Positions 2,898 to 44,533 of a DNA stretch of 44,533 bases are shown in pieces. Origin of the DNA: a virus; IMG/VR virus record IMGVR_UViG_3300014039_000008; one strand, 5' to 3'. Below the pieces are notes generated by a model, which saw only the letters and a program-made list of their open reading frames with translations, was not told where the DNA came from and did no database searches. A program made the position numbers and the translations under genes. Each line of letters starts with the position of its first letter. Positions within the stretch are counted from its first letter, which is position 1.

Positions 2898-2953
2898 TCG
2901 GCTTGCTTAAAACTTATGTCTAGCACCGCAGTGGCGGGAGAAGGGAGAACAGG

Positions 2954-4204: not shown

Positions 4205-4214
4205 CACGTCACAA

Positions 4215-4254
4215 AAGTTGACGGCAACTAACACGGCTATTGTGGTATCCTAAC
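4215..4254 (+). promoter_or_regulatory. copy B of the conserved promoter-like motif (upstream of terS)
   Basis: AAGTTGACGGCAACTAACACGGCTATTGTGGTATCCT; 31 of 37 positions identical to copy C. Confidence 0.55.
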
Positions 4255-4275
4255 GGCAAACAGGGAGGGATGCAC

Positions 4276-4842
4276 ATGGGCCGCAAAAAGGCTTACAAGC
4301 CCGCAGCGCTGCAGCGCGCGGTACGGGAATATTTTGCAGCGCTGCGCTACCGGGAGCCGGTATACCGCGAGGAGCCGGTACTTGACGACGACGGGCAGCC
4401 GGAGTTTGACCGGTACGGACACCCGGCGACGCGCTTTGTGCGCGTTGTGACGGAGGACGGGACGCCTGCCAGCAGGACGAGCTGGGTCAGCCCGCCGACG
4501 ATCACGGGGCTTTGCGGGAGGCTTGGCATCAGCCGCCAGACGTGGAGCAAGTATCTGGCGGCAGAGGACACGCACGACATCTGCGACGAGGCCAAGCGGG
4601 TGATCGAGACCTACCTGCAGGAGAGGCTCGAGGACAAAAACTCCGCGGCGGGCGCAAAATTTGCGCTGCAGGCAAACTACGACTGGCGTGAGCGCCGGGA
4701 GATCAGCACGGACGCGCCGACGAGAGCCGCGATCGCAGGCGGCGAGATGACGATGGACGACAAGCTGGCGCTGCTGCGAGAGATCCAGGGCATGCAGCTG
4801 CCTGAGACGGAGGGGACACATGACAGCGACGGTACTGTTTGA
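4276..4842 (+). CDS. terS: terminase small subunit
   Basis: ATG 4276 after GGGAGGG. HTH-like PPTITGLCGRLGISRQTWSKY is followed by GAKFALQANYDW, a pattern typical of small terminases. Confidence 0.75.
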   Translation: MGRKKAYKPAALQRAVREYFAALRYREPVYREEPVLDDDGQPEFDRYGHPATRFVRVVTEDGTPASRTSWVSPPTITGLCGRLGISRQTWSKYLAAEDTHDICDEAKRVIETYLQERLEDKNSAAGAKFALQANYDWRERREISTDAPTRAAIAGGEMTMDDKLALLREIQGMQLPETEGTHDSDGTV

Positions 4843-23800: not shown

Positions 23801-26800
23801 TCGACTATGCAGAAGCATACGACGGCATTTACGGCGAGTTTACCGAGGACATGACGGAGGAGCAGGAAAATGAGCTTGCGATCCGGTACATGGAGGAAGT
23901 TTTCGCGGATGCCTACGCTGGCATCCGCCGAGGGCAGCGCCGTATCCGCTCCGCGCAGAAGACGCTGGAGGCCAGCGGGGAGATCGAGACGCTCCGGGCA
24001 AGAGGCCAGACGGCACAGAATGCGCAGGAGGAGCAGAGCGGGAAACTGTCTATTGCAGATGGACTGCTCGACAAACTTCGGCGCGTAGCAGAAAACAGGT
24101 ATCGAGGAGCTGACGAAATCTATATCGGGGAAACATCGGACTTTTTGACGCGGGAGATCGGTGTCGACGCGGCAAAGGTCACAATGCCTGCGAGCAAAGC
24201 GTACGCCGCAATGGTGACTGCAGAGCAGGCAAAGGTGGATAACCGATACGACAAGAACATAAATTACCACGGGCTCGGGGCAGAGGGGATGCTCGAAATC
24301 CTCGAAAAATCGGAAAACCCTGTTGCGGCATTCGTTTCAAAACCTGGAGAAAAAGGAAGTCGGCTGAATCGACTGGTGCTCGTAACCGACCAAGAGATCA
24401 ACGGCGGGAACGCGGTGGTCGTAGAGGAAATTGAGGCCCAAGGTAGACTGAAGGGGAAAAAACTAAAGGTAAATAAAGTCATAACCGCATATGAACGTGA
24501 GCGTGCGGCGCAAGATGTGCAGGACGCACAAATAGACGGCAGGCTGCTATACCTAGACAAAAAAAGAAGCCAGAGCTTAAATGCTGGGAGGCCGGGGTCC
24601 AATTCCCCGGTGGCCATGCAAAGCTCTGACTTCCAGACCAATATACAAAACTTTCTCGCAGATGTCAAGTGGGAATCCGGGGAATACGATAAAAAAGTTT
24701 CTGGAAGCGGACCGGTCGAGAGCGATATCGCAGCAGCGTTCAGAAAATCTTTAGAGAAGAAGACAAGCTTCTCAGTATCGGGCGACCAGAATGGGCAGGA
24801 CGGGCGGGGAAAACAGAGATTTTCGCTGTCTGAGCCGGTGGAGCGCGCTGGGAACCTGATTGCGGAGCACAACCTGACGCAGGAGAAGCTGGAGAAGGCG
24901 CTGGAGATCGGCGCGTTTCCGTCGCCGTCCATCGCTATCGTGCAGGCCGAGCAGGGGCATACAAACTACGGAGACTATTCCGTCGTGTTCCCAGCGTCGA
25001 CGATCGACCCCGAGGCGGACAGCCGGAACCGCGTATATGGCGCGGACGCATGGACGCCGACCTCGTCCAACGCGACCGTGGAGTACCGTGTGGATGCGGA
25101 TGCAAAGCGGGCGTTCGAGCGCAGCATCCGGGACCTGTCGGGGCAGGTAGCAGACGGGATTTTCCGTGGAGACAGTACGCTCGGCAAGGCCGGGATCGAA
25201 GAGGAAACGACCAAGACAAGCCGGGAAATCGCGGAGCAGATCGCGCAGTATCCGGAGGTCAAGGCGGCTTATCTTGCGGATAAAGGCGAGAATATCAGTC
25301 CTGTCTACAAGGACAGAGAGTACGACAATATTGGGAATGCGGCGCTGCAGCGGTATACGGACAACGTCGGCGCACAGGACCTTGCATGGATCATTGCGCA
25401 GATGGACATGGGGGATGCGCAAAGCGTGGCACAGGCAGAGCTGCAGCGCGTGCGGCAGGCGATCGGGGAGGAATATGCAGAGCGGTTTGCAAGGATCCTC
25501 GACCGGAGGCCGGAACGCAAGGCGGAGCGCGTCAGTGAGTACGCAGAAAACAAAATGTACAGCAGCATGCGGGCAGAGGACTTTATCAGGCATGCGTGGG
25601 AGATGGTACAGGACGGAGGCCGGAACAGCGGCGAAGCGGACAAAATGGCCATGCAGGACGAGCTTGACCGAAAAGCGCCGGTGCAGGACGTGGCGGCGTG
25701 GGCAGAAAAGCGGCTGCAGGATGTGATCGGCGAGGGCGGGATCTACAACAATGAGGATCGCTATACAAGCCGAGGCGACCGCAGGAGTTTTGACCAGACC
25801 CACTGGGAGCTGAACGCGGAGAACCTCGTCCGGGCTATGGCACAGGCGGAGGAACGCGGCGCAAACATCATGTGGTATGATGCCGGTGGCCTGCTGGCAG
25901 CGGCGACGCCGGAGTACCGGAGCATCAGCGAGATCCATGCCGACGAGGGGCGGCTGCAGACGTTGGAGCAGGAGGCCTACGAGGGGAAAGTGATGAAGCT
26001 GCAGCAAAGCCTTGACAACGTGGTCGAGCGCATCCTGCAGGAGACAAAGCACAAAGCATATGGGTATCAGGATGAGAGCCAGCTTATCACGGAAGCGCTG
26101 ATCAAGACCGCACAGGGCGGCGACAGCCTGCAAAGCATCCGCGAGGGGATGGCAGCGGAAGAATACGACATTGACCGTGCGACGGCAATGCGGGTTCAGG
26201 AGCTGTTTCAGCAGGCGAAGGAGATTCCTACCTCGTACTTCGAGGCCAAGCCGCAGCGGGTAGTAAGCTTTGATGAGGCGGTCGCGCTGTTGGCCCCGGA
26301 AAGCGCTCCGGCGAGTCTGATGGCAAGAGCAGAGGACGCGGGCCTGCGCGTGATCCGGTACACGGACGACGCAGACAGGATCCGCGTTGCAAACGAACTG
26401 CCGGGCGTGAAATTCTCCGTGCAGGAGGAGCAGGATGCTGGGGAGAGCCAGAAGCAAGACACGCAGAAAGACCTCGGAGAGATGAACCGGCAGGTGCAGG
26501 GGGCGGAGGCTGCGATGCGCAGCGACGCACTCAAGGCACAGGCGGACGCCGAGCTGCAGGAGTACCTGAAAAAGGGAAAGAGCGAGCTGGCACAGTCCAT
26601 CAGCAAGATGAGCGACGCAGCGCTGAAAAAGCAGACCGAGCGGGTCAAACAGGCCATGACGGCAGAGTCGGAGGGCCTGCGCATCAACGAGGCCGCCGAG
26701 GCTGTGACAGAGGGCGTGCAGAAGTACGCGGAGAGCCGCAACCAGCGCCTCGGCGATATGCTGCAGATGATCAAGGCCGAGCAGAACAAGCGCGCAGCGG

Positions 26801-29800
26801 AAAAGCGAGAGGCCGAAAAGCAGCGACGTGCAGAGGCCCGGAAGACGCCGGAAGCGAAGCTACAGCGCCAGATCGACAAGCTGCAGAAGCAGATTGACAT
26901 TGAGCGTGCGGCGCTCCGGCAGGCGAAGCAGGGCGGGACGCTCACCAGCGAGATGGCCGAGCAGAGCGAGGAACGCATCACGGGCCTCCGGCAGGAGATC
27001 CTCGATTACAAAAACGAGCTGCAGGAGAAGAAGACCGCCGCCCGCGAAGAGAAAAAGCGCCAGCAGGATCAGGCAGCCAAAGAGGCGATCCTGAAGGAGA
27101 AGCCCCGTCAGGCCACGAGAGACCTGACGAACGCGCTGATCGAGAGCTTTAACGTCCCGGAGGCAAACCGCACCCAAGCGACGATCCAGATTCGCGAGCT
27201 TGCGGAGCAGGCCTATCAGGAGGGGCAGAAAGGCCCCATCACGAACGAGCTGCGAAACAAGATGCTCGATACGCTGATCGAGCTGGGGACGGAGCGGGAG
27301 ATGCTCGACAACCGGGAAAGCGAGATCAGCCAGCGGCTGCGCGAAAAGTGGATCCAGGTGCCGGACGAGGTACGGACCGCGTTCGGCGAGGAGTGGGCCG
27401 ACATCAAGGAAAGCGCGTATGACAGCGGCATCTATTTTACCTACAAGGACGGATACCGCAGCATCCAGAGCTGGACGGCCGAACTGCAGAAGGAATTTGG
27501 CCAGATGTTTGATACGACCCGCAGCCCGCAGCAGCAGCTGCGCGACATCGTGAATCTGGCGTCGGAAGGCTACGGGAAGCAGATGACCATCGGCGACATG
27601 CTCCGGCAGAATGCGGACGACTACAGCTGGAGCATGCGCGAGAAGGTCGAGGAGCTCGGGAAGGTGCTGGACGACCAGCTGCAGCGGTTTGGTGAAAAGG
27701 CAAACATCGAGGTCAAGCTCGCGGCCCGGTCGGCGAAGTCCCTGCAGGCGCAGCAGCAGTATTTTGAGAACCGGCTGCGCAGCCGGACGGAGCAGCAGAT
27801 GGAGAGCCTCGCAAGAGAGAAGCTCCTCAAGAGCGCAAAGCAGCTGCGCCGCATGGCAAACAAGTCGTCTGCGGAGCAGCGGGCCGCGATCCAGAAAGTC
27901 ATCGGGAACATCGATCTTGTGGCAAGGAGCATCACGCCGGACGGGATCGAAAACCTGCAGGAGCTTGCACTGAGCTACCGGCAAGCAATGGAAGCCATGG
28001 GCGAGAATTTTATCCGCGACAAGGACGTGGAGGACCGGCTGGCAAGGCTGGGCAAAAAGCGCATCGCCGAAATGGATGACATGGACGAGGTGCGGCAGCT
28101 TGCGCAGGACATCACGGCCGTGGCCACACAGATCCGGAATCAGAACCAGATGCTCGCGACTGTGCGCCGCGAAACGGTATCAGAAATGGCCGAGAACGTC
28201 CGCAAGGAAGTGAAGGCCGCGAAGGGCAGCAACGCAGGAAAGGCAAGAGATTTCGTGCTGATGCAGACCGACGCGAAGCGTTTCTTCCTCGAACTCGGCG
28301 GTTGGAAGGAAGACGGCGCGACAGCCGAGCTGCTGCACGGGCTGGAGCGAGGCGAGGAGAAGCGCCGCCTGTACGAAATGCGAGCGCAGGGCCTCTTTAA
28401 CGGGTTCCTCGCGGACAAGGCCAACAAGAAATGGGTCGAGAGCGCGACCGGGAAGGACGCACAGTGGATCACGGTCGACACGCCGCGCGGCGCGTCCGTC
28501 ATCAAGGACGGAACGGCGAGCGCGATCAGCGAGCTGACCATGACCCCGATGATGCGCGTCTCCCTGATCATGCACAGCAAAAACGAGGACAACCTGCGGC
28601 ACATCGCCGAGGGCGGCATGCGCGTGCCGAACCGGGCGCTCTACAAGAAGGGCAACATCTCGGAGGCGTATGCGCGCGGAGACGTTGTGACACTGACGCC
28701 GCAGGCCGTGCGGGACATCGTGCGCGGGGCAACGGCGCAGGAGATCCAATTTGCCGCGATCCTGAGCAAGTATTTTGACGGGCAGGCCAAGAATGCGATT
28801 AACGAGGTATCCATGGTCATGGATGGCTATGAGAAGGCCATGGTCAAGAACTATTTCCCGATCGAGTCCGACCGCGCGTTTACCGTGCAGGACAATGACC
28901 AGGTGCGCAACGACATTTCGCTGACCGGGCTCGGGTTTTTGAAACAGCGTACCGGGAAGGGTGCGAACCCCGTGCTGCTGCAGGATGCCTCGCAGACGTT
29001 CCAGAGGAGCGTGGAATCCGTCAGCAAATACTACGGATTAGCACTGCCGATCCGCGACCTGAACGCCATCATGAACAGCACCTACTATGAGAACGCCGGA
29101 AAGGTGCGGCTTTCGCAGACGGACAAGTTGCTCGGACGCGACCGCAGCAAGGAGGGCGGCGGCGCGATCCGCACGCAGAGCGCAGAAAGCGTGCGGAATG
29201 TGATCGCCGGGAAGTGGGGCAAAAGCTCCATCAACTACATCGAAAAGCTCGTCGGAGACCTCCAGCGCAGCGGGAAGGACATGGACGCGTTCTCCGGGTT
29301 CTTCGGATGGCTGCGCGGGCAGTATGCGAGCGCGGTGATCTCTTTCAACCCGAGCTCGATGCTCAAGCAGTGGGGCAGCTATGCAACGGCCATGGCGTAT
29401 CTCAGCCCCGGCGATCTCGCAGCGGGCCTGCTGCGGGGCATGAAGGGCAAGGTCAGCACAGACACGCTCGGACAGTACAGCTCCGTCTACTGGTACCGCA
29501 ATCAGGGCAACGCGACGCAGGAACTGCACGACCTGACCACGAACGAGGCACTTGTGACAAAGCTGCCGCTTGGCTACAACTGGGCGCAGGCGATGGACAG
29601 CTTTATCACGCGCCGCCTGATGCTGGCATGTGAGCGAAACGTGAGCCGCACAACAGGCCTGACGCCGGGCACGTCCGAGGAGATCAACAGCGGGACGGAT
29701 GCCTACTGGACGAAGGTCGCGACGCTGTTCAACAAAGTTGTGCTGGACACGCAGTCCAACTCGAGCATTCTGGAGCGTGCGGCCGTAGCACGAGCGAATC

Positions 29801-31923
29801 CGAACAACATCAGCCGATTTATGACGATGTTCCGCGCGGACGCTTTCCAGAGTTTCAACCTGCTCCGTGAGGGGCAAGGCAAGTACCAGAGTGCGCGAGA
29901 GGCCTACCTGCAGAACAAGACGGCTGAGAACCGCAGAGCGATGATCGCAGCGCGGAAGCAGCTGGCAAGGTCCGGCGCGGCTGTGATCGCATCGCAGTTT
30001 GTGTCCGCCTCCATCAGCGTCATGATCAATGCGCTGCGGCGGAGAGATGAGCTGTGGGACGAGGACGGCCTGAACTGGGGCGAGGTCATGAAGCAGCTGG
30101 GGCTCGGCATGGTAGAGGGACTCGCGGGCATCTCCATCGCCGGTGAGGAGCTTGTGGGTCTTGTGGAGTCCATCGCCTTTGATGAGACGTGGTACGGGCC
30201 TGACGTCAACGCACTGCAGCTGCTGACCGACACGGCCGAGAGCGCGATCAGCGCGGCGAAGATCCTCAAAAACGGCAAATGGGAGCTTGCGCCCGGTGCG
30301 CTGAAGGATCTGGCGCTGGAGGCATCCACGGTCATGGGCCTGCCGCTCAAAAACGTCGAAAAGTATGTGCAGGTCCTGCCGAGATGGGTCGCGCCGGAGC
30401 TCATGGCAGAGTACGACAACATCTGGGACGAGGTCGACCGGAACGCGCTCTCCAAGTCGTCCGTGCTGGACATCAAGGCGGACATCGGCGTGCTGCTCGA
30501 CAACCGCACCGATGACATGAGCGACGAGGACAAGGAGGAACTGACAAGGCTCTACCTTGCAGGAGGGACCGGAGCGCTCCCGGCAGCCGTGCCGAACTCC
30601 GTCAAGTACAACAACGACAGCGGAGAGGAAGTGACGGTACAGCTCGACTACAGCCAGAAGCAGACGTACAAGAAGGAGTGGAGCAAGATCGTCTCCGGAG
30701 CGATCGGGGCACTGCTGAAGTCTGACCTCTACAACGAGGCGGACGACAAGACCAAGACAAAGATGCTCAATAACCTGTATACCTATGCAAACGGGCTTTC
30801 TGCCGAGAAGGTCGTGCCGGAGAAGGCGGCTGACGGGTGGATCGACGACGCCAGAACGATCAGCGGAGAGGGCGTCAAGATCGCGGATTATATCCAGTGG
30901 CACACGATGCTCAGCGAGATGGATTCCGACGACGCGAGCGGTACCGGCAGGACGGGCCTGAAAAATGCCCGCGCGATGGAGCTGGCGAACGAAAAGGGAT
31001 GGACGTGGGCCGTCCCGTCGGGTGCACCGGACGAGCTCAAATGGATGGAGGACGATACAGAGCAGACACTGCAGCTCACGGATGCGCAGAAGAAGCAGTA
31101 CCGCAAGACATGGACCGGGATCGTATACGGGAGCGTCGGTGACCTGATGCAGTCCGACGAGTACCAGAGCGGGAGCGAGAAGGAGCGCGGCGCGCTCATC
31201 CAGAAGCTGACGTCCTATGCATCCGCGCTGGCGGCCTATGAGATCGAGCCGAAAAAGGAGCCGGACACATGGATCCTCGGCGGGCAGCAGGCCGTGAAAG
31301 ACGGCGTGCCGCTGGACGAGTACATCGTTTTCCGCGCGCTCTACAGCGAACTGGACAGCATCAACGAGGACGGCGACGAGGAGAGCGGTCTGAAAAACAA
31401 GCGGACGCTGGATCTCATCGAGTCCATGGGATGGAGCGACCAGGCAGAGCAGAGCGCCTATATCAACACCGTGGCCTCGGAGAGCAAGGCCGCTGAGGCG
31501 GAGGCACTGCAAAAAGCCGGAATGACGTGGGAGCAGGCGAATGATGTGCTGGCCGTGCCGGGTACGGGTGTTGCAAAGAAAGTGGCTGTCACGGCGACAA
31601 ACGCGAGCGAGGCGGCCAAGGCGAAGGTCCTTGCGAGCTACGACAAGAGCGAGAAGCAGAAGACTGCAAAGCTCGTCATGACCGGCCTGAAATACGGCAT
31701 CCCGATGCGGCGCTACACGGACGTGCTGCAGAACGCAGACGCGGACGGCAGCGGCGGCGTCTCGCAGGAGGAGGCCGGGAAGTACATCGCGACGCTGGGC
31801 CTCAGCGTACAGGAGGCGGCGTACCTCTGGCAGATGGTCACGAACGGGAAGGAAGGCAAGAAAAACCCGTTCTCCAGCTATTTCGGTTCGGAGTTTTACA
31901 GCGCCGCAGGAGCGTTTGACTGA
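20863..31923 (+). CDS. giant multidomain protein (3,686 aa), polyvalent or ejection-protein-like
   Basis: Uninterrupted 11,061-nt ORF with a GAGGAGG RBS. HEDFH at aa 945-949. Hydrophobic G/A/S-rich region, long coiled coil and tandem C-terminal modules. Confidence 0.85.
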   Translation: MPRDAMAEWLAKRNAEKAAQRATPEHGAVRQAQIKVDQILEQAKKTVTELPGVKAGKTAKSSTPVRQEEGRDAMAEWLAARKESKVQQIAEQGMYTVRNAKTLGVAVANTRAEYQKAHKKAARHVAVNTTAPLAMAEAARYQAKFLSGRSVDKVQREYDTTRERAEEYRQKALRLRETGDAQREASSTAAIGKDREDETRFGSSLTRSADQWDKLAQEESSKALELARELGYAKVYQVQELEENAAMDPQFAQKAQARQDILALGAEESRASQSKANVIYGEINGSEYYVTEDPATEKMTETERRTFTYLYNTKGAAAAEEYYNMLNDTLELRRGEDIAAGMGGTAKKTLFSLGMGVRRFGRGIEQLFNDEQLPLYGEDYAENIINASASHGERILYSAANSIGNMLPMVAISAATQGIGGAVGLSAEAAQAAGKAAGVASMFAGAKGNAYTEAMQQGMTKAQASTYSTLVGASEAGLEYLIGGISQFSMGSGIGDFVQEAISGLGRGYARVAFRFAGSLIGGSIDEIIEENTQNYLEPLFINYVTGKEAEMPGWDEFIETTLSTLITTGVMESRNSFVEAKQNIAFTPFEAQLEWVSAAKNVFAEGTDVAEFADVLESRLQAGDPMSYKEFREGIRALGVDEKTMDRIAKGKLTVDEVLTSAENGDKISLKEWQAEQNSTAQQEQSQTQRAETVQTENDNIETAMTAAEQEADRLIAEWNRGENSSYELGQQAQRVMQQLEEEVREGTATDPGSYINRQLQLQEIVRSAPEASTAQQATQNTTERIDNNGRTEILNDSEERNAGLGAGEQAGAVAEGAGGPVAGGAGTQTQNGRADLSGGREAVSAREIGVKGGTTEKNIHVVIPAEIDTTQAADAAIVEKMNRIVTEAAAKGQDVTFVSGALTVESGGRTVRVEGVRQTGDNGRTQIFLQVDGRRDMERIYRHEDFHDAVEAQPGLLQRLADRLMQEYGREEMLRMAIDYAEAYDGIYGEFTEDMTEEQENELAIRYMEEVFADAYAGIRRGQRRIRSAQKTLEASGEIETLRARGQTAQNAQEEQSGKLSIADGLLDKLRRVAENRYRGADEIYIGETSDFLTREIGVDAAKVTMPASKAYAAMVTAEQAKVDNRYDKNINYHGLGAEGMLEILEKSENPVAAFVSKPGEKGSRLNRLVLVTDQEINGGNAVVVEEIEAQGRLKGKKLKVNKVITAYERERAAQDVQDAQIDGRLLYLDKKRSQSLNAGRPGSNSPVAMQSSDFQTNIQNFLADVKWESGEYDKKVSGSGPVESDIAAAFRKSLEKKTSFSVSGDQNGQDGRGKQRFSLSEPVERAGNLIAEHNLTQEKLEKALEIGAFPSPSIAIVQAEQGHTNYGDYSVVFPASTIDPEADSRNRVYGADAWTPTSSNATVEYRVDADAKRAFERSIRDLSGQVADGIFRGDSTLGKAGIEEETTKTSREIAEQIAQYPEVKAAYLADKGENISPVYKDREYDNIGNAALQRYTDNVGAQDLAWIIAQMDMGDAQSVAQAELQRVRQAIGEEYAERFARILDRRPERKAERVSEYAENKMYSSMRAEDFIRHAWEMVQDGGRNSGEADKMAMQDELDRKAPVQDVAAWAEKRLQDVIGEGGIYNNEDRYTSRGDRRSFDQTHWELNAENLVRAMAQAEERGANIMWYDAGGLLAAATPEYRSISEIHADEGRLQTLEQEAYEGKVMKLQQSLDNVVERILQETKHKAYGYQDESQLITEALIKTAQGGDSLQSIREGMAAEEYDIDRATAMRVQELFQQAKEIPTSYFEAKPQRVVSFDEAVALLAPESAPASLMARAEDAGLRVIRYTDDADRIRVANELPGVKFSVQEEQDAGESQKQDTQKDLGEMNRQVQGAEAAMRSDALKAQADAELQEYLKKGKSELAQSISKMSDAALKKQTERVKQAMTAESEGLRINEAAEAVTEGVQKYAESRNQRLGDMLQMIKAEQNKRAAEKREAEKQRRAEARKTPEAKLQRQIDKLQKQIDIERAALRQAKQGGTLTSEMAEQSEERITGLRQEILDYKNELQEKKTAAREEKKRQQDQAAKEAILKEKPRQATRDLTNALIESFNVPEANRTQATIQIRELAEQAYQEGQKGPITNELRNKMLDTLIELGTEREMLDNRESEISQRLREKWIQVPDEVRTAFGEEWADIKESAYDSGIYFTYKDGYRSIQSWTAELQKEFGQMFDTTRSPQQQLRDIVNLASEGYGKQMTIGDMLRQNADDYSWSMREKVEELGKVLDDQLQRFGEKANIEVKLAARSAKSLQAQQQYFENRLRSRTEQQMESLAREKLLKSAKQLRRMANKSSAEQRAAIQKVIGNIDLVARSITPDGIENLQELALSYRQAMEAMGENFIRDKDVEDRLARLGKKRIAEMDDMDEVRQLAQDITAVATQIRNQNQMLATVRRETVSEMAENVRKEVKAAKGSNAGKARDFVLMQTDAKRFFLELGGWKEDGATAELLHGLERGEEKRRLYEMRAQGLFNGFLADKANKKWVESATGKDAQWITVDTPRGASVIKDGTASAISELTMTPMMRVSLIMHSKNEDNLRHIAEGGMRVPNRALYKKGNISEAYARGDVVTLTPQAVRDIVRGATAQEIQFAAILSKYFDGQAKNAINEVSMVMDGYEKAMVKNYFPIESDRAFTVQDNDQVRNDISLTGLGFLKQRTGKGANPVLLQDASQTFQRSVESVSKYYGLALPIRDLNAIMNSTYYENAGKVRLSQTDKLLGRDRSKEGGGAIRTQSAESVRNVIAGKWGKSSINYIEKLVGDLQRSGKDMDAFSGFFGWLRGQYASAVISFNPSSMLKQWGSYATAMAYLSPGDLAAGLLRGMKGKVSTDTLGQYSSVYWYRNQGNATQELHDLTTNEALVTKLPLGYNWAQAMDSFITRRLMLACERNVSRTTGLTPGTSEEINSGTDAYWTKVATLFNKVVLDTQSNSSILERAAVARANPNNISRFMTMFRADAFQSFNLLREGQGKYQSAREAYLQNKTAENRRAMIAARKQLARSGAAVIASQFVSASISVMINALRRRDELWDEDGLNWGEVMKQLGLGMVEGLAGISIAGEELVGLVESIAFDETWYGPDVNALQLLTDTAESAISAAKILKNGKWELAPGALKDLALEASTVMGLPLKNVEKYVQVLPRWVAPELMAEYDNIWDEVDRNALSKSSVLDIKADIGVLLDNRTDDMSDEDKEELTRLYLAGGTGALPAAVPNSVKYNNDSGEEVTVQLDYSQKQTYKKEWSKIVSGAIGALLKSDLYNEADDKTKTKMLNNLYTYANGLSAEKVVPEKAADGWIDDARTISGEGVKIADYIQWHTMLSEMDSDDASGTGRTGLKNARAMELANEKGWTWAVPSGAPDELKWMEDDTEQTLQLTDAQKKQYRKTWTGIVYGSVGDLMQSDEYQSGSEKERGALIQKLTSYASALAAYEIEPKKEPDTWILGGQQAVKDGVPLDEYIVFRALYSELDSINEDGDEESGLKNKRTLDLIESMGWSDQAEQSAYINTVASESKAAEAEALQKAGMTWEQANDVLAVPGTGVAKKVAVTATNASEAAKAKVLASYDKSEKQKTAKLVMTGLKYGIPMRRYTDVLQNADADGSGGVSQEEAGKYIATLGLSVQEAAYLWQMVTNGKEGKKNPFSSYFGSEFYSAAGAFD
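23231..23419 (+). CDS. nested ORF (62 codons) in the +1 frame inside the giant gene
   Basis: ATG 9 nt after GAAAGGA. Hand-counted GC3 is 49/62 (79%) in this frame versus 27/63 (43%) in the giant frame over the same span. The product is K/E/Q-rich and protein-like. Confidence 0.4.
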   Translation: MAERKFLMTARNGMQVWVPESKLEQWQKAQEDQSPEAQERRRKTAERILAAVERLSAQGKSE

Positions 31924-41107: not shown

Positions 41108-41462
41108 GTGTGTCTGCCGCGCGTGCCGGTACCTCCGCGAGGAGGACGCCGGGCGCGATGCAAAATTTTACCGGTGCGGGGTGACGGGGCGGGTGATCGA
41201 GCACGCTCCGCTCTGCGCCAAATGGCCGAGCACGCCGCTGCGGCGCTGCCCGGCCGCCGCAATCAGAAAGGAGCTGCACAGCATGGAGAAGAGGAACAAA
41301 TGGGAGCCCGGCGAGCGGGTGTTGGCGGTGTGCACGGGGACGTGGCACTACGGCGTCGGCGTGGTCCGCAGCGGGCCGGACAAAAACAACCGGTACGTCG
41401 TGGAGTTTGACCGCGACGGCCTGCGCAGCGGGTGCCGGGTGATCGGGAGGCCGCAGGAATGA
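41097..41462 (+). CDS. Cys-rich (zinc-finger-like) N-terminus plus a small beta domain (121 aa)
   Basis: GTG start overlapping the upstream gene. CVCRAC...RCGV...LCAKW. An internal ATG at 41283 with its own AAAGGAG could mean two products. Confidence 0.55.
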   Translation: MRDECVCRACRYLREEDAGRDAKFYRCGVTGRVIEHAPLCAKWPSTPLRRCPAAAIRKELHSMEKRNKWEPGERVLAVCTGTWHYGVGVVRSGPDKNNRYVVEFDRDGLRSGCRVIGRPQE

Positions 41463-42154
41463 GCGTATGCGACAAGCGATGCGAGGCCTGCCCGTATCCG
41501 GACTGCATCAACGACGAGATGGATCTGGACGACTACCAGGAGGCTGACGCAAGGGACCGGGCGCTCGGGACGGTGCGCAAGGCAAAGGACCCGCCACCCG
41601 TCGGGGGCAACACGGCCAAAAAGGAGGCGGCGCGGGAGCGCAGCCGGGAGAGGGCTAAGGAGCGTTACGCGGAAAAGCGGGAGGAGAGACTCGCCTACTT
41701 AAGGAAATGGCACGCAGAGCATCCGGAGTGGCGCAAGGAATACTATCAGCAAAACCGGGAGCGCCTGCTGGCGCAAGCGAGGGCGTACCGGGAAACTCAC
41801 AAAGCCGCAGTGCGGGCTTATAAGAGGGCCTATTATCAGGCCAATCGGGATAATTACCGCGCCTATCGTAAGGCGCACCGGGAGGAGATTAACGCCCGGG
41901 AGCGCGAGAGATACGACAAGCGCATGCGGGAGCACGGTCAGGGAGACGCGGAGCAGCAGGGCCGGGAGAAGGACTACCAAAGAGCCTACTATCTGGCCCA
42001 TCAGGAGGAGCTCCGCGCGAAAGGCCGGGAGTACCGCGAGAAGAACCGCGAGCGGCTGAAGGAGCAGAAACGGGCGTACTATCTGGCCCATCAGGAGGAG
42101 CTCCGCGCCAAGGCGCTGGCGCGGTACTACAGGAAGAAAGGGGAAGGGGCATGA
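41459..42154 (+). CDS. Cys-cluster plus tandem R/Y/E-rich helical repeat protein (231 aa)
   Basis: ATGA overlap. CDKRCEACPYPDC is followed by about 7 repeats of the AYY..N.E....Y type. A 32-bp perfect DNA repeat occurs at 41987-42018 and 42077-42108. Confidence 0.7.
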   Translation: MSVCDKRCEACPYPDCINDEMDLDDYQEADARDRALGTVRKAKDPPPVGGNTAKKEAARERSRERAKERYAEKREERLAYLRKWHAEHPEWRKEYYQQNRERLLAQARAYRETHKAAVRAYKRAYYQANRDNYRAYRKAHREEINARERERYDKRMREHGQGDAEQQGREKDYQRAYYLAHQEELRAKGREYREKNRERLKEQKRAYYLAHQEELRAKALARYYRKKGEGA

Positions 42155-42507
42155 CGGTATACATTGCCGGTGGGATCACCGGCGTCGAGGACTACAAGGC
42201 GCGGTTTGCGGCCGCGAAGCGGATGCTTCTGCGGGAGGAACAGGACCGGACGGACAGCACGGCGCGGTATTATGGCTCACCGCGGGCGGACAAGGTGCTG
42301 AATCCGGCGGAGCTGCCGGAGGACTGGCCGGGCAAGGTCTACATGGACGTTTGCCTTGCGATGATCAACAAGGCCGACCTCGTGGTGTTTTTGCCCGGCT
42401 GGGAGCGCAGCCGCGGGGCAAGCCTCGAGATGCAGTATTGCCGGTACCAGAGCAAGGCGGTGTACAAGATTGCAGAGGAGGAGCTTGAGGGGTGGATGAG
42501 AAGCTGA
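42151..42507 (+). CDS. DUF4406-like / nucleoside 2-deoxyribosyltransferase-like protein (118 aa)
   Basis: MTVYIAGGITG...DLVVFLPGWERSRGASLEMQY matches the YIAG.. and GWE.S.GA..E pattern of that family, from memory. Confidence 0.65.
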   Translation: MTVYIAGGITGVEDYKARFAAAKRMLLREEQDRTDSTARYYGSPRADKVLNPAELPEDWPGKVYMDVCLAMINKADLVVFLPGWERSRGASLEMQYCRYQSKAVYKIAEEELEGWMRS

Positions 42508-43334
42508 CTCATCTCAGCGTTTTTTCCGGGATCGGTGGGCTTGATCTTGCGGCCGAATGGGCCGGGTTTACGACCGTCGGGCAGTGCGAAATGGCAGATT
42601 ACCCGACGGCGGTGCTGGAGAAGCACTGGCCGGACGTCCCACGCTGGCGGGATATCCGTACCCTGACAAAGGAGAGTTTTTATGAGCGTACCGGACTGGG
42701 AACAGTTGACGTTATATCCGGAGGATTCCCCTGCCAGCCGTTTTCCGTGGCCGGAAAGCAGCGAGGAAAGGAAGACGCGCGGTTTCTGTGGCCTGAAATG
42801 TGCCGCGTTATCCGGGAGCTTAGGCCGCATTGCGTCGTCGGCGAGAACGTACCTGGAATCATCAAGATTGCCGCCCGGCAGGTGGTCGAGGATCTGGAGC
42901 ACGCAGGTTATCACGTCGTCGTGCTGCAATTTGAGGCTGCGGCTGTCGGCGCTTGGCACCGGCGGGCAAGATGCTTTTTTGTGGGGATCGACGATCTATC
43001 CGACGCCGAAAGCATCGGGCAGCAAGGGCTCTGGGCCACTGGGGAGCCGGAGCGCGGAGCACGACCTCCGGCGGAAAAACCTGAAAGGCTGCGTCCTGTT
43101 TGCGACGCCATGCCGGGGAGACGCGACCGGGACGCACGGCGGCTGGAATCACAGGAGCTTGCGGACGGACGTCAATGGGCAGCTGAACCCGGAGTGGACA
43201 GAGTGGTTAATGGGCTTCCCTGTCGGGTGGAGCGCATTAGGGCCCTCGGCAATGCGGTCGTACCGCAGCAGGCATACCCGATCTTCCGCGCGCTCGCGGA
43301 GGAACTGACAAGGAGGATTGACAATGGACGTTAA
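42492..43334 (+). CDS. dcm: DNA (cytosine-5)-methyltransferase; the formal ORF is intact but the conserved middle part is encoded in the +1 frame (apparent double frameshift)
   Basis: Frame 0 contains FSGIGG, GGFPCQPFS, ENV, RRARCFFVG and GNAVVP. Frame +1 (about 42987-43240) contains TIYPTPKASGSKGSGP and LNPEWTEWLMGFPVGW. Confidence 0.8.
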   Translation: MDEKLTHLSVFSGIGGLDLAAEWAGFTTVGQCEMADYPTAVLEKHWPDVPRWRDIRTLTKESFYERTGLGTVDVISGGFPCQPFSVAGKQRGKEDARFLWPEMCRVIRELRPHCVVGENVPGIIKIAARQVVEDLEHAGYHVVVLQFEAAAVGAWHRRARCFFVGIDDLSDAESIGQQGLWATGEPERGARPPAEKPERLRPVCDAMPGRRDRDARRLESQELADGRQWAAEPGVDRVVNGLPCRVERIRALGNAVVPQQAYPIFRALAEELTRRIDNGR

Positions 43335-43509
43335 GGATCTGATCGAGCGGCTGCGGGAAGCTGCGGGCGCTCTGGACGGGACCGCGCTGCGCGTCAGCAC
43401 GAGCAAATTTGACACACAGATCATCGCCGAGCTGCTGCTTGATGCGGCGGATGCGCTGGAGGGCAAGGCGGAGAGGCCGGAGCAGGAGGAGATGGAGGCA
43501 TGGATATAG
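43324..43509 (+). CDS. truncated paralogue (61 aa) of the N-terminus of the junction-spanning gene
   Basis: ATG 43324 after AGGAGG. Its first 53 codons correspond to those of the gene starting at 44393 (identical at DNA level only over the 3' 100 bp). It then diverges and stops inside the rSAM gene start. Confidence 0.5.
   Translation: MDVKDLIERLREAAGALDGTALRVSTSKFDTQIIAELLLDAADALEGKAERPEQEEMEAWI
43384..43483 (+). repeat. 100-bp perfect direct repeat, copy 1 (upstream flank of the radical-SAM cassette)
   Basis: Identical to 44453-44533 plus 59-77. Weaker similarity extends upstream to about 43304 / 44368. Confidence 0.95.
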
Positions 43510-44411
43510 GAGACCGGAGAATCGCGAGGGTGTTCCCACGGCGGACGTCAGCGACGCCGCACGACGAGTTGGCTTTTGTGGGCCCCATAACGATGGAGAC
43601 GATCGCAGCCATAACGCAAGCGGAGCCGTCGGAAATCCATATATCCGCAACGTTTACGTGGGATTTGCCGGATGTGGATGAGCTTTATGAGAGCTATTCC
43701 GTTTTTGGTGTCCCAGTTGAGGTCGGAGGGCCCGCCTTCGGTGATCGGATGGGTGACTTTGTACCGGGGATGTACATCCGGGAGGGGCTTGTATTTACGT
43801 CGAGGGGATGCAACAAAGATTGCTGGTTTTGCAGCGTCCCAAAATGCTGTAACGGGGAAATTAGAGAGCTGCCGATCGTGGACGGCTGGAACATACTCGA
43901 TGATAACGTGCTTGCAACATCTATGGAGCACTTCCGCGGCGTGTGCAACATGCTCAAGCGGCAGCCGGAGCGCGCCGTATTTTCTGGGGGACTTGAGCCG
44001 AGCCTGTTAACAGCAGAGCACGCAAAGCTCCTGGCGGGAGTGCGGCCGAAGCGCATATACACGGCATACGATACAAAAGACGATTTAGAGCCGTTGCGGG
44101 CGATGGGAAGACTGCTCCGGGAAGTAGGGATAACAGAGCGATCTAATACACTGGCCTGCTATGTGCTCGTGGGATATGAAGGAGATACATTAGATGATGC
44201 AGAGAAGCGGTGTAGAGAGGCGATGGAGGCGGGCGCTATGCCATTTGCCATGTTATATCGCGATGAGTCAGGGCGAGCACCCGACAAAGAGTGGAGGAGA
44301 TTCCAGCGGGAGTGGGCTAACAGGATAATTGTCGGGCGGAAACTAAAGGATTACCGGGACGCTCGCGGAAGAACTGAACAGGAGGGCTGTCAATGGACGT
44401 TAAGGATCTGA
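43500..44411 (+). CDS. radical SAM superfamily enzyme, specificity unknown (303 aa)
   Basis: CxxxCxxC cluster motif in TSRGCNKDCWFCSVPK. ATG after GGAGGAG. Lower GC than the flanks. Confidence 0.85.
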   Translation: MDIGDRRIARVFPRRTSATPHDELAFVGPITMETIAAITQAEPSEIHISATFTWDLPDVDELYESYSVFGVPVEVGGPAFGDRMGDFVPGMYIREGLVFTSRGCNKDCWFCSVPKCCNGEIRELPIVDGWNILDDNVLATSMEHFRGVCNMLKRQPERAVFSGGLEPSLLTAEHAKLLAGVRPKRIYTAYDTKDDLEPLRAMGRLLREVGITERSNTLACYVLVGYEGDTLDDAEKRCREAMEAGAMPFAMLYRDESGRAPDKEWRRFQREWANRIIVGRKLKDYRDARGRTEQEGCQWTLRI

Positions 44412-44533
44412 TCGAGCGGTTGCGGGATGCTGCAGCCGCTCTGGACGGGACTGCGCTGCGCGTCAGCACGAGCAAATTTGACACACAGATCATCGCCGAG
44501 CTGCTGCTTGATGCGGCGGATGCGCTGGAGGGC
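44393..44533 (+). CDS. 5' portion of the junction-spanning CDS (continues at base 59)
   Basis: ATG 44393 after CAGGAGGG. MDVKDLIERLRDAAAALDGTALRVSTSKFDTQIIAELLLDAADALEG. Confidence 0.7.
   Translation, partial: MDVKDLIERLRDAAAALDGTALRVSTSKFDTQIIAELLLDAADALEG
44453..44533 (+). repeat. 100-bp perfect direct repeat, copy 2 (downstream flank of the radical-SAM cassette; continues at 59-77)
   Basis: Identical to 43384-43464, and onward across the junction. Confidence 0.95.

What the first reader, a model, noticed from the sequence alone, without database searches (positions are those of the whole stretch)
42151..44411. DUF4406-like, C5-methyltransferase and radical-SAM genes in a row: possible nucleic-acid modification or anti-defence module
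The distal end of the early operon holds three consecutive genes whose families all act on nucleotides, nucleic acids or SAM. The first is a nucleoside 2-deoxyribosyltransferase-like DUF4406 protein (YIAGGITG...GWERSRGASLE). The second is a SAM-dependent C5-cytosine methyltransferase. The third, after a 61-codon remnant, is a radical-SAM enzyme. Phage DNA hypermodification pathways typically combine a base-modifying enzyme with further tailoring enzymes. Radical-SAM enzymes can alkylate or rearrange methylated bases. I know of no characterised pathway with this trio. The apparent damage to the methyltransferase, together with the cassette nature of the rSAM gene, suggests the module is in flux.
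Basis: inference. Interest (0 to 1): 0.7.

Follow-up and report, generated by a model that had tools for sequence, protein, structure and literature searches.

The report
Intact nested-gene methyltransferase beside swapped-in radical-SAM cassette
The three neighbouring genes are independently shuffled cassettes in a phage "DNA-modification island", not a pathway; the "damaged" cytosine methyltransferase is an intact two-subunit enzyme whose small subunit is read from a second frame inside the large subunit's gene.

Summary
The interpretation mostly fails.

- **Methyltransferase.** It is not damaged. A +1-frame ORF (42682-43308), with its own AAGGAG site and ATG, lies inside the C5-methyltransferase gene (42492-43334). 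It carries the variable region and a motif-IX-like LNPEWxEWLMGFPxGW. The outer frame carries motifs I-VIII and X. This nested ORF recurs in relatives from gut, Paenibacillus and mycobacterial phages. Substitution periodicity switches A, A+B, B, A along the gene. This is the published M.EcoHK31I alpha/beta layout.
- **Radical-SAM gene.** It is a lower-GC cassette (43485-44359) flanked by a ~194-nt duplication. It belongs to an unnamed phage family (phrog_9298).
- **Linkage.** In the same phage lineage the cassette is absent, or sits behind an N6/N4 methyltransferase instead of the C5 enzyme. DUF4406 is present whether or not the cassette is. Distant family members stand alone.
- **Rest of genome.** ORFs of 115 aa or more encode no known hypermodification enzymes.

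Verdict: a mosaic modification island, with a new phage member of a known nested-gene methyltransferase type and an orphan radical-SAM enzyme of unknown substrate.

The parts
42151..42507 (+). DUF4406 (nucleoside 2-deoxyribosyltransferase-like) gene, 118 aa. Its stop overlaps the methyltransferase alpha start by 16 nt.
   Evidence: Pfam PF14359 E 1.5e-21; phrog_355 E 6.1e-21. Present in all 16 DUF4406-seeded lineage contigs, with or without the radical-SAM gene.
42492..43334 (+). C5-cytosine methyltransferase alpha (large) subunit, frame A, 280 aa. Motif I 42522-42539, IV 42723-42746, VI 42840-42857, VIII 42957-42986, X 43245-43268. The stretch between VIII and X (~42987-43200) shows no frame-A-type constraint.
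   Evidence: PF00145 aa 7-170, TIGR00675, phrog_363 aa 3-270. M.HhaI/M.HaeIII match over aa 6-167. Motif coordinates. Substitution periodicity.
42669..42674 (+). Shine-Dalgarno AAGGAG, 7 nt upstream of the beta-subunit ATG, embedded in the alpha coding sequence.
   Evidence: An SD-like site precedes the +1-frame start in 60 of 85 related genes, and a strong one (>=5 nt) in 44 of 85.
42682..43308 (+). Nested +1-frame gene for the methyltransferase beta (small) subunit, 208 aa. N-terminal EQLTLYPEDSPAS region; variable PTP modules at 42997-43029 and 43102-43131; motif-IX-like LNPEWTEWLMGFPVGW at 43183-43230.
   Evidence: phrog_1008 E 7.5e-19. 823 called homologues. Annotated as a nested CDS in Paenibacillus phage Tadhana, gp55 inside gp54. 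Median open +1 run of 233 codons against 49 in the +2 frame across 85 genes. Synonymous-site suppression and a periodicity shift.
42975..42980 (+). T6 run at the point where the constrained frame changes from A to B. Single-base or 8-nt indels here give alpha::beta in-frame fusions in some assemblies.
   Evidence: P0231, P0212; L030. The run is not conserved outside the close lineage, so it is not proposed as a programmed slip site.
43291..43484 (+). Direct repeat copy 1: a ~33-nt conserved boundary sequence (holding the last codons of alpha) plus the first ~54 codons of the downstream 149-aa gene.
   Evidence: the repeat finder D1, 174 nt at 94% identity. The extension to ~43484 is read by eye. 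Boundary comparison.
43324..43509 (+). 61-codon remnant ORF: the duplicated 5' part of the 149-aa gene, running 7 codons into cassette DNA.
   Evidence: Translations compared. Called as a 61-aa gene in identical contigs. No family hit.
43485..44359 (+). Unique DNA of the radical-SAM cassette, with lower GC (~55%).
   Evidence: 89% nucleotide identity to L006 over 43484-44415, where the gene follows an N6/N4 methyltransferase. Composition; GC3 of 0.61 against ~0.8 for backbone genes.
43500..44411 (+). Radical-SAM enzyme, 303 aa. N-terminal Rossmann-like domain (aa ~8-76), CNKDCWFC at 43809-43832, GGLE at 43986-43997. The last ~17 codons read into the boundary sequence.
   Evidence: phrog_9298 E 3.9e-20. 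4852 homologues. AlphaFold2 model with pLDDT 87.8. Foldseek top hits AprD4 and CysS. Invariant C104/C108/C111 and G163/G164/E166 in 65 sequences.
44360..44533 (+). Direct repeat copy 2: the boundary sequence plus the start (ATG 44393) of the full-length 149-aa gene. It continues at window 59-367 because the contig is circular.
   Evidence: Terminal overlap 1-58 = 44476-44533. The 149-aa gene is called in identical contigs.

Best explanation
The stretch is the distal end of a co-directional early operon in a ~44.5-kb, circularly assembled, integrase-bearing phage. The holin, amidase and SH3 domains point to a Gram-positive host, and radical-SAM relatives sit in gut Oscillospiraceae/Clostridia bins. 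The stretch acts as a cassette-exchange island for DNA-modification genes, not as one pathway.

(1) DUF4406 is the lineage-constant gene. It has a nucleoside-2-deoxyribosyltransferase-like fold, and its substrate is unknown.

(2) The C5-methyltransferase is an intact two-polypeptide enzyme of the M.EcoHK31I type.
- Shown: ribosomes reading frame A would make alpha, the AdoMet-binding and catalytic core with motifs I-VIII and X.
- Shown: a conserved internal AAGGAG plus ATG in the +1 frame opens the beta ORF, which carries the variable region and a motif-IX-like segment.
- Inferred: alpha and beta assemble into an orphan methyltransferase that marks phage DNA against host restriction.

(3) The radical-SAM gene is an autonomous accessory cassette.
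- Shown: it is bounded by a duplication that includes a conserved boundary sequence upstream of the next gene, leaving a 61-codon duplicate of that gene's 5' end.
- Inferred: it arrived by recombination with a relative carrying DUF4406, an N6/N4 methyltransferase and the radical-SAM gene.
- Inferred, low confidence: from where it sits, it probably acts on a nucleic-acid or nucleotide substrate, or on a host defence component. It does so independently of 5-methylcytosine.
For: Nested methyltransferase:
- The frame-B ORF with its own ATG is conserved. It is annotated as a nested CDS in Paenibacillus phage Tadhana and is open in Xenia and in mycobacteriophage Hades.
- tblastn finds beta in the +1 frame at the same relative place in about 68 of 80 alpha-bearing viral contigs.
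- Across 85 genes with GC 41-67%, the median open run is 233 codons in the +1 frame, 49 in the +2 frame and 119 in the best reverse frame. The motif-IX pattern is in the +1 frame in 63 of 85 and in frame A in 6 of 85. Motif X is in frame A in 72 of 85.
- The internal ATG lies 14 codons upstream of the PCQ motif. An SD-like site is present in 60 of 85 genes.
- Alpha and Tadhana gp54 align only over motifs I-VIII and X. Beta and gp55 align end to end.
- Alpha third-position divergence falls from 0.27-0.29 to 0.06 exactly where beta starts. In 43032-43121 the most variable position becomes A1 (= B3). Frame-A periodicity returns at motif X. Fisher p values are 1e-20 and 8e-8, uncorrected for relatedness.
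- Published M.EcoHK31I: beta is encoded entirely in another frame inside alpha, alpha has motifs I-VIII and X, beta has motif IX, and both are needed (PMC2836561; PMC3404938).

Cassette and lack of linkage:
- Flanking repeat and lower GC.
- L006 shares 43484-44415 at 89% identity behind an N6/N4 methyltransferase.
- Same-backbone contigs L159 and L161 lack the gene.
- The P0242 arrangement is DUF4406, N6/N4 methyltransferase, DUF6275, radical-SAM gene, in all 8 places shown of 23 contigs read.
- None of 16 DUF4406-seeded contigs has the radical-SAM gene.
- Of 67 radical-SAM-seeded loci, 12 have alpha, 9 have DUF4406 and 28 have a PAPS-reductase-like gene.
- Stand-alone homologues exist in distant phages.
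- No promoter or terminator signal above chance inside the stretch.
- No known hypermodification families among the other ORFs of 115 aa or more.
Against: - No expression or activity data exist for alpha, beta or the radical-SAM enzyme.
- Beta alone folds poorly in AlphaFold2 (pLDDT 35). A beta profile finds nothing in the PDB sequences. Its equivalence to motif IX therefore rests on the sequence pattern, the literature analogy, and only a small Pfam gain for an alpha/beta/alpha chimera (129.8 against 124.4 bits).
- In distant relatives the N-terminal third of beta scores no better than the control +2 frame.
- The M.EcoHK31I sequence itself was not available for comparison.
- Weak positive association among the three families: Fisher p 0.047 and 0.06, uncorrected for relatedness. 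All three genes recur together in a few other contigs (L129, L156, L130, L132), so some functional affinity cannot be strictly excluded.
- The substrate of the radical-SAM enzyme is unknown.
Confidence: 0.78

Rival explanations
1. DUF4406, the C5-methyltransferase and the radical-SAM enzyme form one pathway that builds a hypermodified base, for example radical tailoring of 5-methylcytosine, or a joint anti-defence module.
For: All three families act on nucleotides, nucleic acids or SAM. They are co-directional with no terminator between them. The three genes recur within one locus in L129, L156, L130 and L132. Weak association, p 0.047 and 0.06, uncorrected.
Against: - The closest radical-SAM copies (>=90% identity) mostly sit behind an N6/N4 methyltransferase without any C5 enzyme.
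- Lineage members with DUF4406 and the C5 enzyme lack the radical-SAM gene.
- 55 of 67 radical-SAM loci lack alpha, and 58 of 67 lack DUF4406.
- Gene order differs where the three co-occur.
- Distant homologues stand alone.
- The radical-SAM gene is a recent, compositionally foreign insertion.
- No other hypermodification genes were found.
Confidence: 0.06
2. The methyltransferase is a decaying pseudogene carrying two compensating frameshifts. The frame-B ORF is an accident of high GC content.
For: The conserved methyltransferase motifs lie in two frames. Frame A between motifs VIII and X looks like low-complexity sequence. Pfam matches only the first half of frame A.
Against: - The same layout occurs in phages with 41-47% GC.
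- The SD and ATG of the inner ORF are conserved.
- Codon-position substitution patterns show purifying selection in frame A, then A+B, then B, then A.
- Frame A is open end to end in the window and in the relatives inspected directly (L001, L002, Tadhana, Xenia, Hades).
- An experimental precedent, M.EcoHK31I, has this architecture.
Confidence: 0.03
3. A single-chain methyltransferase is made by two programmed ribosomal frameshifts: +1 at the T6 run 42975-42980, and back before motif X.
For: The T6 run sits exactly at the A-to-B switch. In-frame alpha::beta fusions exist in some assemblies (P0231, P0212, L030).
Against: The T run is absent from most relatives that keep the nested ORF. No slippery site or stimulator was identified for the return shift. 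Beta has its own conserved SD and ATG about 290 nt upstream of the T run, and synonymous suppression begins at that ATG, not at the T run.
Confidence: 0.03
4. The radical-SAM enzyme works with the neighbouring PAPS-reductase-like (PP-loop) or other island genes in a DNA-modification system that the window has only partly retained.
For: A PAPS-reductase-like gene is found in 28 of 67 radical-SAM loci and is often the immediate neighbour on either side.
Against: The window has no PAPS-reductase-like ORF. 39 of 67 loci lack it. Its position relative to the radical-SAM gene is variable. Distant homologues have no such neighbour.
Confidence: 0.08

Closest known systems
M.EcoHK31I (E. coli HK31; Lee, Kam & Shaw 1995, as described in PMC2836561 and PMC3404938)
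   Same: A two-polypeptide C5-cytosine methyltransferase. The small subunit is encoded entirely within the large-subunit gene in another reading frame. [quoted passage not shown]
   Different: - Here the gene is a phage orphan methyltransferase with no restriction partner seen.
- The variable region that is under selection and that shows modular indels is in beta, not alpha. The literature places the predicted target-recognition domain of M.EcoHK31I in alpha.
- Sequence homology to M.EcoHK31I itself was not tested, because the sequence and the original paper were not available.
M.AquI (two-subunit C5 methyltransferase; PMC3404938)
   Same: A naturally split C5 methyltransferase whose subunits must associate.
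   Different: In M.AquI the split is serial: alpha has motifs I-VIII, beta has IX-X, and the break lies within the variable region. Here beta is fully nested in another frame, and motif X stays on alpha.
Paenibacillus larvae phage methyltransferases (e.g. Tadhana gp54/gp55) and mycobacteriophage Hades gp69
   Same: The same family and the same nested +1 ORF with PTP modules and LNPxWxExLMGFPxGW.
   Different: Identity is only 50% for alpha and 29% for beta. The nested ORF is annotated in some Paenibacillus phages but not in Hades. None has been characterised experimentally, as far as the held literature shows.
B12-binding-domain-like radical-SAM enzymes (AprD4, PDB 6fd2; CysS, PDB 9n1d)
   Same: An N-terminal Rossmann-like domain followed by a CxxxCxxC radical-SAM partial barrel. 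These are the best Foldseek hits (E 5e-5 and 3e-4).
   Different: TM-score is only 0.45-0.47 and identity 10-13%. The phage protein is about 150-330 residues shorter, its N-terminal domain is only ~70 aa, and the Pfam B12-binding hit is far below its cut-off (17.8 against 32.1 bits). No functional inference is possible.
phrog_9298 'radical SAM domain protein' (phiCT453B gp19, Bacteroides phage BKO1-TP3 gp14, Methanomassiliicoccales virus vir215)
   Same: Same family (E 3.9e-20; tblastn). Located in the early or replication region.
   Different: Identity is 23-28%. These homologues have no adjacent DUF4406 or C5 methyltransferase. All are uncharacterised.
Known phage DNA hypermodification pathways that use a radical-SAM enzyme (7-deazaguanine via QueE; 5-hmdU-derived thymidine hypermodifications). 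Recalled from memory, not from a tool.
   Same: A phage radical-SAM enzyme in a nucleic-acid-modification context.
   Different: None of the partner enzymes was found among the window's ORFs of 115 aa or more: DpdA/TGT, QueC/D, FolE, pyrimidine hydroxymethylase, 5-HMU DNA kinase, PLP enzymes. The radical-SAM enzyme does not resemble QueE in length or architecture.

Membership tests
M.EcoHK31I-type two-polypeptide C5 methyltransferase | The large subunit carries motifs I-VIII and X in one frame. | tested here: met
   FSGIGG, GFPCQPFS, GENVPG, HRRARCFFVG and LGNAVVPQ are all in frame A. Motif X is in frame A in 72 of 85 relatives.
M.EcoHK31I-type two-polypeptide C5 methyltransferase | The small-subunit ORF lies entirely inside the large-subunit gene in an alternative reading frame, with its own start. 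| tested here: met
   42682-43308 (+1 frame) lies inside 42492-43334. AAGGAG is followed after 7 nt by ATG. The arrangement is conserved in relatives.
M.EcoHK31I-type two-polypeptide C5 methyltransferase | The small subunit carries conserved motif IX. | tested here: inconclusive
   The pattern LNPEWTEWLMGFPVGW is in beta, and in the +1 frame of 63 of 85 relatives against 6 of 85 in frame A. However, the beta profile finds no PDB methyltransferase, Pfam does not match beta alone, and an alpha/beta/alpha chimera gains only ~5 bits and a second matched stretch.
M.EcoHK31I-type two-polypeptide C5 methyltransferase | The target-recognition domain is located on the large subunit, as the literature states for M.EcoHK31I. 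| tested here: not met
   Between motifs VIII and X, frame A shows no third-position periodicity and does not align between distant relatives. Frame B does both, and carries modular indels.
M.EcoHK31I-type two-polypeptide C5 methyltransferase | Both polypeptides are required for methylation. | not testable with these tools
   Needs expression of alpha, of beta, and of both together.
M.EcoHK31I-type two-polypeptide C5 methyltransferase | Sequence homology to M.EcoHK31I alpha and beta themselves. | not tested
   The sequence is not in any searchable set here, and the original paper is not held. A plasmid tblastn with beta found only Leptospira and Bacillus thuringiensis records.
C5-cytosine DNA methyltransferase (PF00145 / TIGR00675) | Score above the curated cut-off, and a catalytic PCQ cysteine motif. 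| tested here: met
   PF00145 124.4 bits (cut-off 22). TIGR00675 106.7 bits (cut-off 100.65). GFPCQPFS is present.
Radical SAM superfamily | A CxxxCxxC cluster motif and a GGE SAM-binding motif, both conserved across the family. | tested here: met
   C104, C108, C111, G163, G164 and E166 are invariant in 65 sequences.
Radical SAM superfamily | Pfam PF04055 score above the gathering cut-off. | tested here: not met
   21.1 bits against 29.5. About a quarter of the listed homologues carry a precomputed PF04055 hit, and phrog_9298 matches at E 3.9e-20.
Radical SAM superfamily | A partial TIM-barrel fold resembling solved radical-SAM enzymes. | tested here: met
   AlphaFold2 pLDDT 87.8. Top Foldseek PDB hits are AprD4, CysS and lysine 2,3-aminomutase, each with probability 1.00 but TM-score <= 0.47.
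Cobalamin-dependent (class B) radical-SAM methyltransferases | A full N-terminal cobalamin-binding domain. | tested here: inconclusive
   Pfam B12-binding 17.8 bits against a cut-off of 32.1, with no stretch passing on its own. NCBIfam class-B models score E 0.04-0.08, far below cut-off. The N-terminal domain is only ~70 aa.
Known housekeeping radical-SAM subfamilies (QueE, NrdG, MiaB/RimO, HemN and others) | A match to a curated equivalog model. | tested here: not met
   No NCBIfam model is near its cut-off. PDB sequence hits have E >= 0.16 and cover only the cluster loop. The family is compact: 1159 clusters at 50% identity, with lengths of ~270-300 aa.
DUF4406 / nucleoside 2-deoxyribosyltransferase-like | Pfam score above cut-off. 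| tested here: met
   77 bits against a cut-off of 22.
DUF4406 / nucleoside 2-deoxyribosyltransferase-like | Catalytic residues and activity of a deoxyribosyltransferase or dNMP N-glycosidase. | not tested
   No solved relative was found by sequence, and no literature on function was found.
Known phage DNA hypermodification pathway | Presence of the hallmark partner enzymes elsewhere in the genome (hydroxymethylase, DNA kinase, DpdA/TGT, QueC/D, glycosyltransferase). | tested here: not met
   A Pfam scan of 101 ORFs of 115 aa or more outside the finding, plus the 3686-aa ORF, found only packaging, head, lysis, integrase, HTH, phosphoesterase and toxin-domain families.
Anti-phage defence system components (PADLOC) | A match to a PADLOC model. 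| tested here: not met
   No match for DUF4406, beta or the radical-SAM enzyme. Alpha matches generic type II and Druantia-type methyltransferase models only.

The most novel reading that the evidence does not exclude
Two readings remain open.

(a) The compact radical-SAM family (phrog_9298 type) may catalyse an undescribed radical-based modification of DNA, RNA or a nucleotide, or inactivate a host defence factor, on its own. The family has about 1,100 clusters at 50% identity. It was found here only in phage or prophage-sized contigs of anaerobes, including an archaeal virus. It habitually sits among methyltransferase, PAPS-reductase-like and Mom-like cassettes.

(b) In a large clade of phage C5 methyltransferases the target-recognition modules may be encoded in an overprinted frame (beta). 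Specificity could then be swapped by indels that leave only a tolerant linker in alpha. This would be a general design principle that goes beyond the single M.EcoHK31I precedent and is routinely missed by annotation.
Probability: 0.25. Interest if true: 0.72.

Novelty: new member of a known kind. Interest (0 to 1): 0.4.

Why it matters
- **Annotation.** A methyltransferase that looks frameshifted is a functional-looking nested-gene enzyme. The same hidden beta ORF is present in many phage genomes and is unannotated in mycobacteriophage Hades. Pseudogene calls and single-ORF annotations for this family are therefore probably wrong, and heterologous expression of alpha alone may fail.
- **Dual-coding dataset.** The family offers more than 80 diverse examples of long-term dual coding in which the constrained frame switches along the gene.
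- **The radical-SAM enzyme.** The three-gene hypermodification idea can be dropped. Attention moves to the radical-SAM enzyme as a stand-alone, abundant, uncharacterised accessory enzyme of gut-anaerobe phages.

Tried and rejected
- **Beta structure.** AlphaFold2 on beta alone with 42 homologues gave pLDDT 35, which is unusable, so no fold search was run on it.
- **Beta against solved structures.** The beta profile found nothing in PDB sequences.
- **Chimera test.** A conceptual alpha/beta/alpha chimera against Pfam gave only a marginal gain.
- **Segment tblastn with a control frame.** Over the first third of beta, frame B scores no better than the +2 frame in distant relatives. That test alone cannot show selection there. 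The codon-position analysis did.
- **Programmed frameshift at the T6 run.** Rejected because the run is not conserved.
- **Original M.EcoHK31I paper.** Not held. The plasmid tblastn did not find an E. coli relative.
- **Literature.** Searches for DUF4406 function and for phage radical-SAM anti-defence gave nothing useful. The Paenibacillus phage genomics paper lists two methyltransferase genes without comment on nesting.
- **Radical-SAM function.** PADLOC, NCBIfam and PDB sequence searches gave no assignment. The BFVD fold search found only other unnamed B12-like radical-SAM viral proteins.
- **Promoter and terminator scan.** Nothing above chance.

Full report
**1. What is at the coordinates**

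The ORF list and sequence show four co-directional ORFs.
- 42151-42507 (118 aa) is DUF4406: Pfam PF14359, E 1.5e-21; phrog_355 'nucleoside 2-deoxyribosyltransferase'.
- 42492-43334 (280 aa, frame A) is a C5-cytosine methyltransferase: PF00145 E 8.8e-36 but only over aa 7-170; TIGR00675 above its cut-off; phrog_363 E 4.6e-76 over aa 3-270.
- 43324-43509 is the 61-codon ORF.
- 43500-44411 (303 aa) has the radical-SAM cluster motif CNKDCWFC and a GGLE motif. Pfam Radical_SAM is below its cut-off (21.1 against 29.5 bits), but phrog_9298 matches at E 3.9e-20.

The window is a circular assembly, because 1-58 equals 44476-44533. The gene that starts at 44393 therefore continues at 59-367 and is 149 aa long.

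**2. The methyltransferase is not damaged**

*Two frames.* A second ORF, 42682-43308 (208 aa, +1 relative to frame A), lies wholly inside the methyltransferase gene. Frame A holds motifs I, IV, VI, VIII and X. Frame B holds PTP-type modules and LNPEWTEWLMGFPVGW, a motif-IX-like segment. Frame B matches a different methyltransferase-annotated family, phrog_1008, at E 7.5e-19.

*Same layout in close and distant relatives.* Two human-faecal phage fragments that are 86-90% identical at the nucleotide level (L001, L002) have the identical two-frame layout. The layout is therefore inherited, not a sequencing error. tblastn with frame B also hits Paenibacillus larvae phages. In phage Tadhana the annotators called two overlapping methyltransferase CDSs: gp54 (frame A, 356 aa) and gp55 (+1 frame, 234 aa) nested inside it. 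Xenia has the same open ORF, and so does mycobacteriophage Hades gp69, where it is unannotated.

*Alignments.* Alpha against gp54 aligns only over motifs I-VIII (50% identity) and the motif-X end (46%), with nothing in between. Beta against gp55 aligns end to end, including that middle part. Frame-B conservation in the middle is therefore not a by-product of frame A.

**3. Family-wide tests**

- *Location of beta.* In 80 alpha-bearing viral contigs, tblastn places beta in the +1 frame at the same relative position in about 68.
- *Open frames.* Across 85 genes with GC 41-67%, the +1 frame is open for a median of 233 codons. The +2 frame is open for 49 and the best reverse frame for 119. The motif-IX pattern is in the +1 frame in 63 genes and in frame A in only 6. 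Motif X is in frame A in 72.
- *Start signals.* The +1 ORF usually begins with an ATG 14 codons upstream of the PCQ motif. It is preceded by AAGGAG, AGGAG or GGAGG at about 7 nt: an SD-like site in 60 of 85 genes and a strong one in 44 of 85. In the window this is AAGGAG 42669-42674 and ATG 42682.
- *Substitution pattern.* In 15 close relatives, divergence at alpha third positions is 0.27-0.29 upstream of the beta start. It falls to 0.06 in the 30-codon bin that contains the start, and stays at 0.10-0.17 through the overlap. In 43032-43121 the most variable position becomes A1, which is beta's third position (0.289). Frame-A periodicity returns at motif X. Fisher p values are 1e-20 and 8e-8, not corrected for relatedness.
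- *Control.* A segment-wise tblastn control was uninformative for the first third of beta in distant relatives.

*Gene callers.* Public metagenome callers pick beta in hundreds of contigs: 823 proteins at E <= 1e-3. For the very same sequence they sometimes pick alpha and sometimes beta.

**4. Comparison with what is known**

M.EcoHK31I is described as an alpha/beta enzyme. Its beta chain is encoded entirely in a different reading frame inside the alpha gene. Alpha has motifs I-VIII and X, beta has motif IX, and both are needed for activity (PMC2836561; PMC3404938). The window's gene has this architecture.

There is one difference. The literature places the predicted target-recognition domain on alpha. 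Here the region between motifs VIII and X is constrained in frame B, and the beta alignment shows modular indels there.

Direct homology to M.EcoHK31I could not be tested. Motif-IX equivalence is supported only by the pattern and a marginal Pfam gain. Beta alone does not give a confident model. That is inconclusive for a subunit expected to fold against alpha.

In-frame alpha::beta fusions made by small indels at the T run 42975-42980 exist in a few assemblies. The run is not conserved, so programmed frameshifting is not proposed.

**5. The radical-SAM gene is a cassette**

- *Repeat and composition.* A direct repeat, 43291-43464 and 44360-44533 at 94% identity, brackets the gene. Read by eye it continues to ~43484 and, after the wrap, to ~78. 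Cassette GC is ~55% against 63-65% for the neighbours, and GC3 is 0.61 against ~0.8.
- *Boundary sequence.* The repeat contains a ~33-nt boundary sequence just upstream of the 149-aa gene, plus that gene's first ~54 codons. Both the alpha ORF and the radical-SAM ORF terminate inside a copy of the boundary.
- *Source of the cassette.* Contig L006 shares 43484-44415 at 89% nucleotide identity, but there the gene follows DUF4406 and an N6/N4 methyltransferase.
- *Relatives without it.* Contigs with the same backbone (84-93% nucleotide identity) lack the gene. L159 has nothing extra in the slot, and L161 has an unrelated 299-aa gene.

The 61-codon ORF is the duplicated 5' end left by this recombination.

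**6. No obligatory linkage among the three genes**

- The exact window arrangement occurs in 8 contigs.
- The >=90%-identical radical-SAM protein P0242 lies in DUF4406, N6/N4 methyltransferase, DUF6275, radical-SAM order, with no C5 enzyme, in all 8 places shown of 23 contigs read (44 blocks indexed).
- Of 16 DUF4406-seeded contigs of the lineage, none has the radical-SAM gene and 11 have the C5 enzyme.
- Of 67 radical-SAM-seeded viral loci (58-64% identity), 12 have alpha, 9 have DUF4406 (6 strong hits), 28 have a PAPS-reductase-like gene, 24 have an N6 methyltransferase, and 4 have all three, in varying order.
- Of 80 alpha-seeded loci, 6 have the radical-SAM gene and 6 have DUF4406.
- The Fisher p values of 0.047 and 0.06 ignore shared ancestry.
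- Distant phrog_9298 members in Clostridium phage phiCT453B, Bacteroides phage BKO1-TP3 and a Methanomassiliicoccales virus stand alone in the early region.
- A Pfam scan of the other ORFs of 115 aa or more found packaging, head, lysis, integrase and HTH families, plus a giant MuF_C/PBECR5 protein. It found no hydroxymethylase, DpdA/TGT, QueC/D, DNA kinase or glycosyltransferase.

**7. What the radical-SAM enzyme is**

- *Family size.* It has 4852 homologues at E <= 1e-3, almost all unnamed. These fall into 1159 clusters at 50% identity, with lengths of ~270-300 aa.
- *Hosts.* Genome-bin hits are all Oscillospiraceae or Clostridia contigs from gut samples.
- *Conserved residues.* The three cluster cysteines and the GGE motif are invariant.
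- *Fold.* The AlphaFold2 model (pLDDT 87.8) has a short Rossmann-like N-terminal domain and a radical-SAM barrel. The best PDB matches are AprD4 and CysS at TM-score ~0.46. The best viral matches are unnamed B12-binding-like radical-SAM proteins.
- *No assignment.* No curated subfamily model, PADLOC model or solved close relative matches.

It is therefore an intact-looking, autonomous enzyme of unknown substrate. Its habitual position among DNA-modification cassettes is the only hint that it acts on a nucleic-acid or counter-defence target, and that step is inference.

**8. Verdict**

- The stretch is a mosaic island, not a pathway.
- The methyltransferase is an intact nested-gene alpha/beta enzyme: a phage member of the M.EcoHK31I kind, in a family where this layout is widespread and often unannotated.
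- The radical-SAM gene is a recently acquired orphan cassette.

Interest is moderate. It comes from the dual-coding methyltransferase family and the uncharacterised radical-SAM family, not from the proposed trio.

Noticed in passing
window 20863-31923 (+): A single 3686-aa ORF, about a quarter of the genome. It has a MuF_C domain (aa 1130-1237) and a PBECR5 Barnase/EndoU/colicin-like nuclease domain (aa 1318-1510, E 7.7e-54). It looks like a giant polyvalent, toxin-domain virion protein.
   Followed up: partly
window 1-58 and 44476-44533: The two ends of the window are identical over 58 nt. The contig is therefore a circular assembly of about 44,475 bp, and the finding abuts the packaging genes at the start of the window.
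   Followed up: yes
window 41432-42154 (+): A 240-aa Lys/Glu/Arg-rich ORF just upstream of DUF4406. It has three 59-nt internal direct repeats that encode a repeated '(R/K)AYY(L/Q)A(H/N)' motif. Its only family hit is weak, to an HNH-annotated PHROG (E 2.1e-5).
   Followed up: no
window 42975-42980; P0231, P0212; L030 ~3420-3440: The T6 run sits where the constrained frame changes from A to B. Some assemblies carry a 1-nt deletion or an 8-nt duplication here, which fuses alpha motifs I-VIII in frame to the beta variable region and motif IX and loses motif X. It is unclear whether these are real variants or assembly errors.
   Followed up: partly
L173 1449-2000 (Mycobacterium phage Hades, inside gp69): An unannotated 183-aa +1-frame ORF inside the annotated methyltransferase gene. 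It carries WRTPVARDYKG and NPTWLAWLMGFPVEW. The nested beta gene therefore appears to be present, and missed, in mycobacteriophage annotations.
   Followed up: partly
window 43291-43323 and 44360-44392: A ~33-nt conserved boundary sequence, including the ribosome-binding site of the 149-aa gene. Whichever cassette gene lies upstream reads into it and terminates there. It looks like the recombination site used for cassette exchange.
   Followed up: partly
L180-L187 ~2650-6120; L002 1783-2892; L161 5646-6545: In close relatives the same slot holds other cargo: an N6/N4 methyltransferase, DUF6275, a weak Mom-like hit (PF25680), a 369-aa PP-loop/PAPS-reductase-like ORF by sequence motif (my family model did not flag it), or an unrelated 299-aa gene.
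   Followed up: partly
L092-L158 (radical-SAM-seeded loci): The commonest immediate neighbour of the radical-SAM gene, on either side, is a ~290-aa PAPS-reductase-like protein with SGGKDS and a C-terminal GCxGC motif, present in 28 of 67 loci. A DUF551-like gene follows in 60 of 67 loci. ThyX-like and ASCH-like genes, identified only by sequence motif, are also frequent.
   Followed up: partly
window 4820-7093 (+): A 757-aa ORF with collagen triple-helix repeats (Pfam E 1.1e-8) near the packaging and head genes.
   Followed up: no
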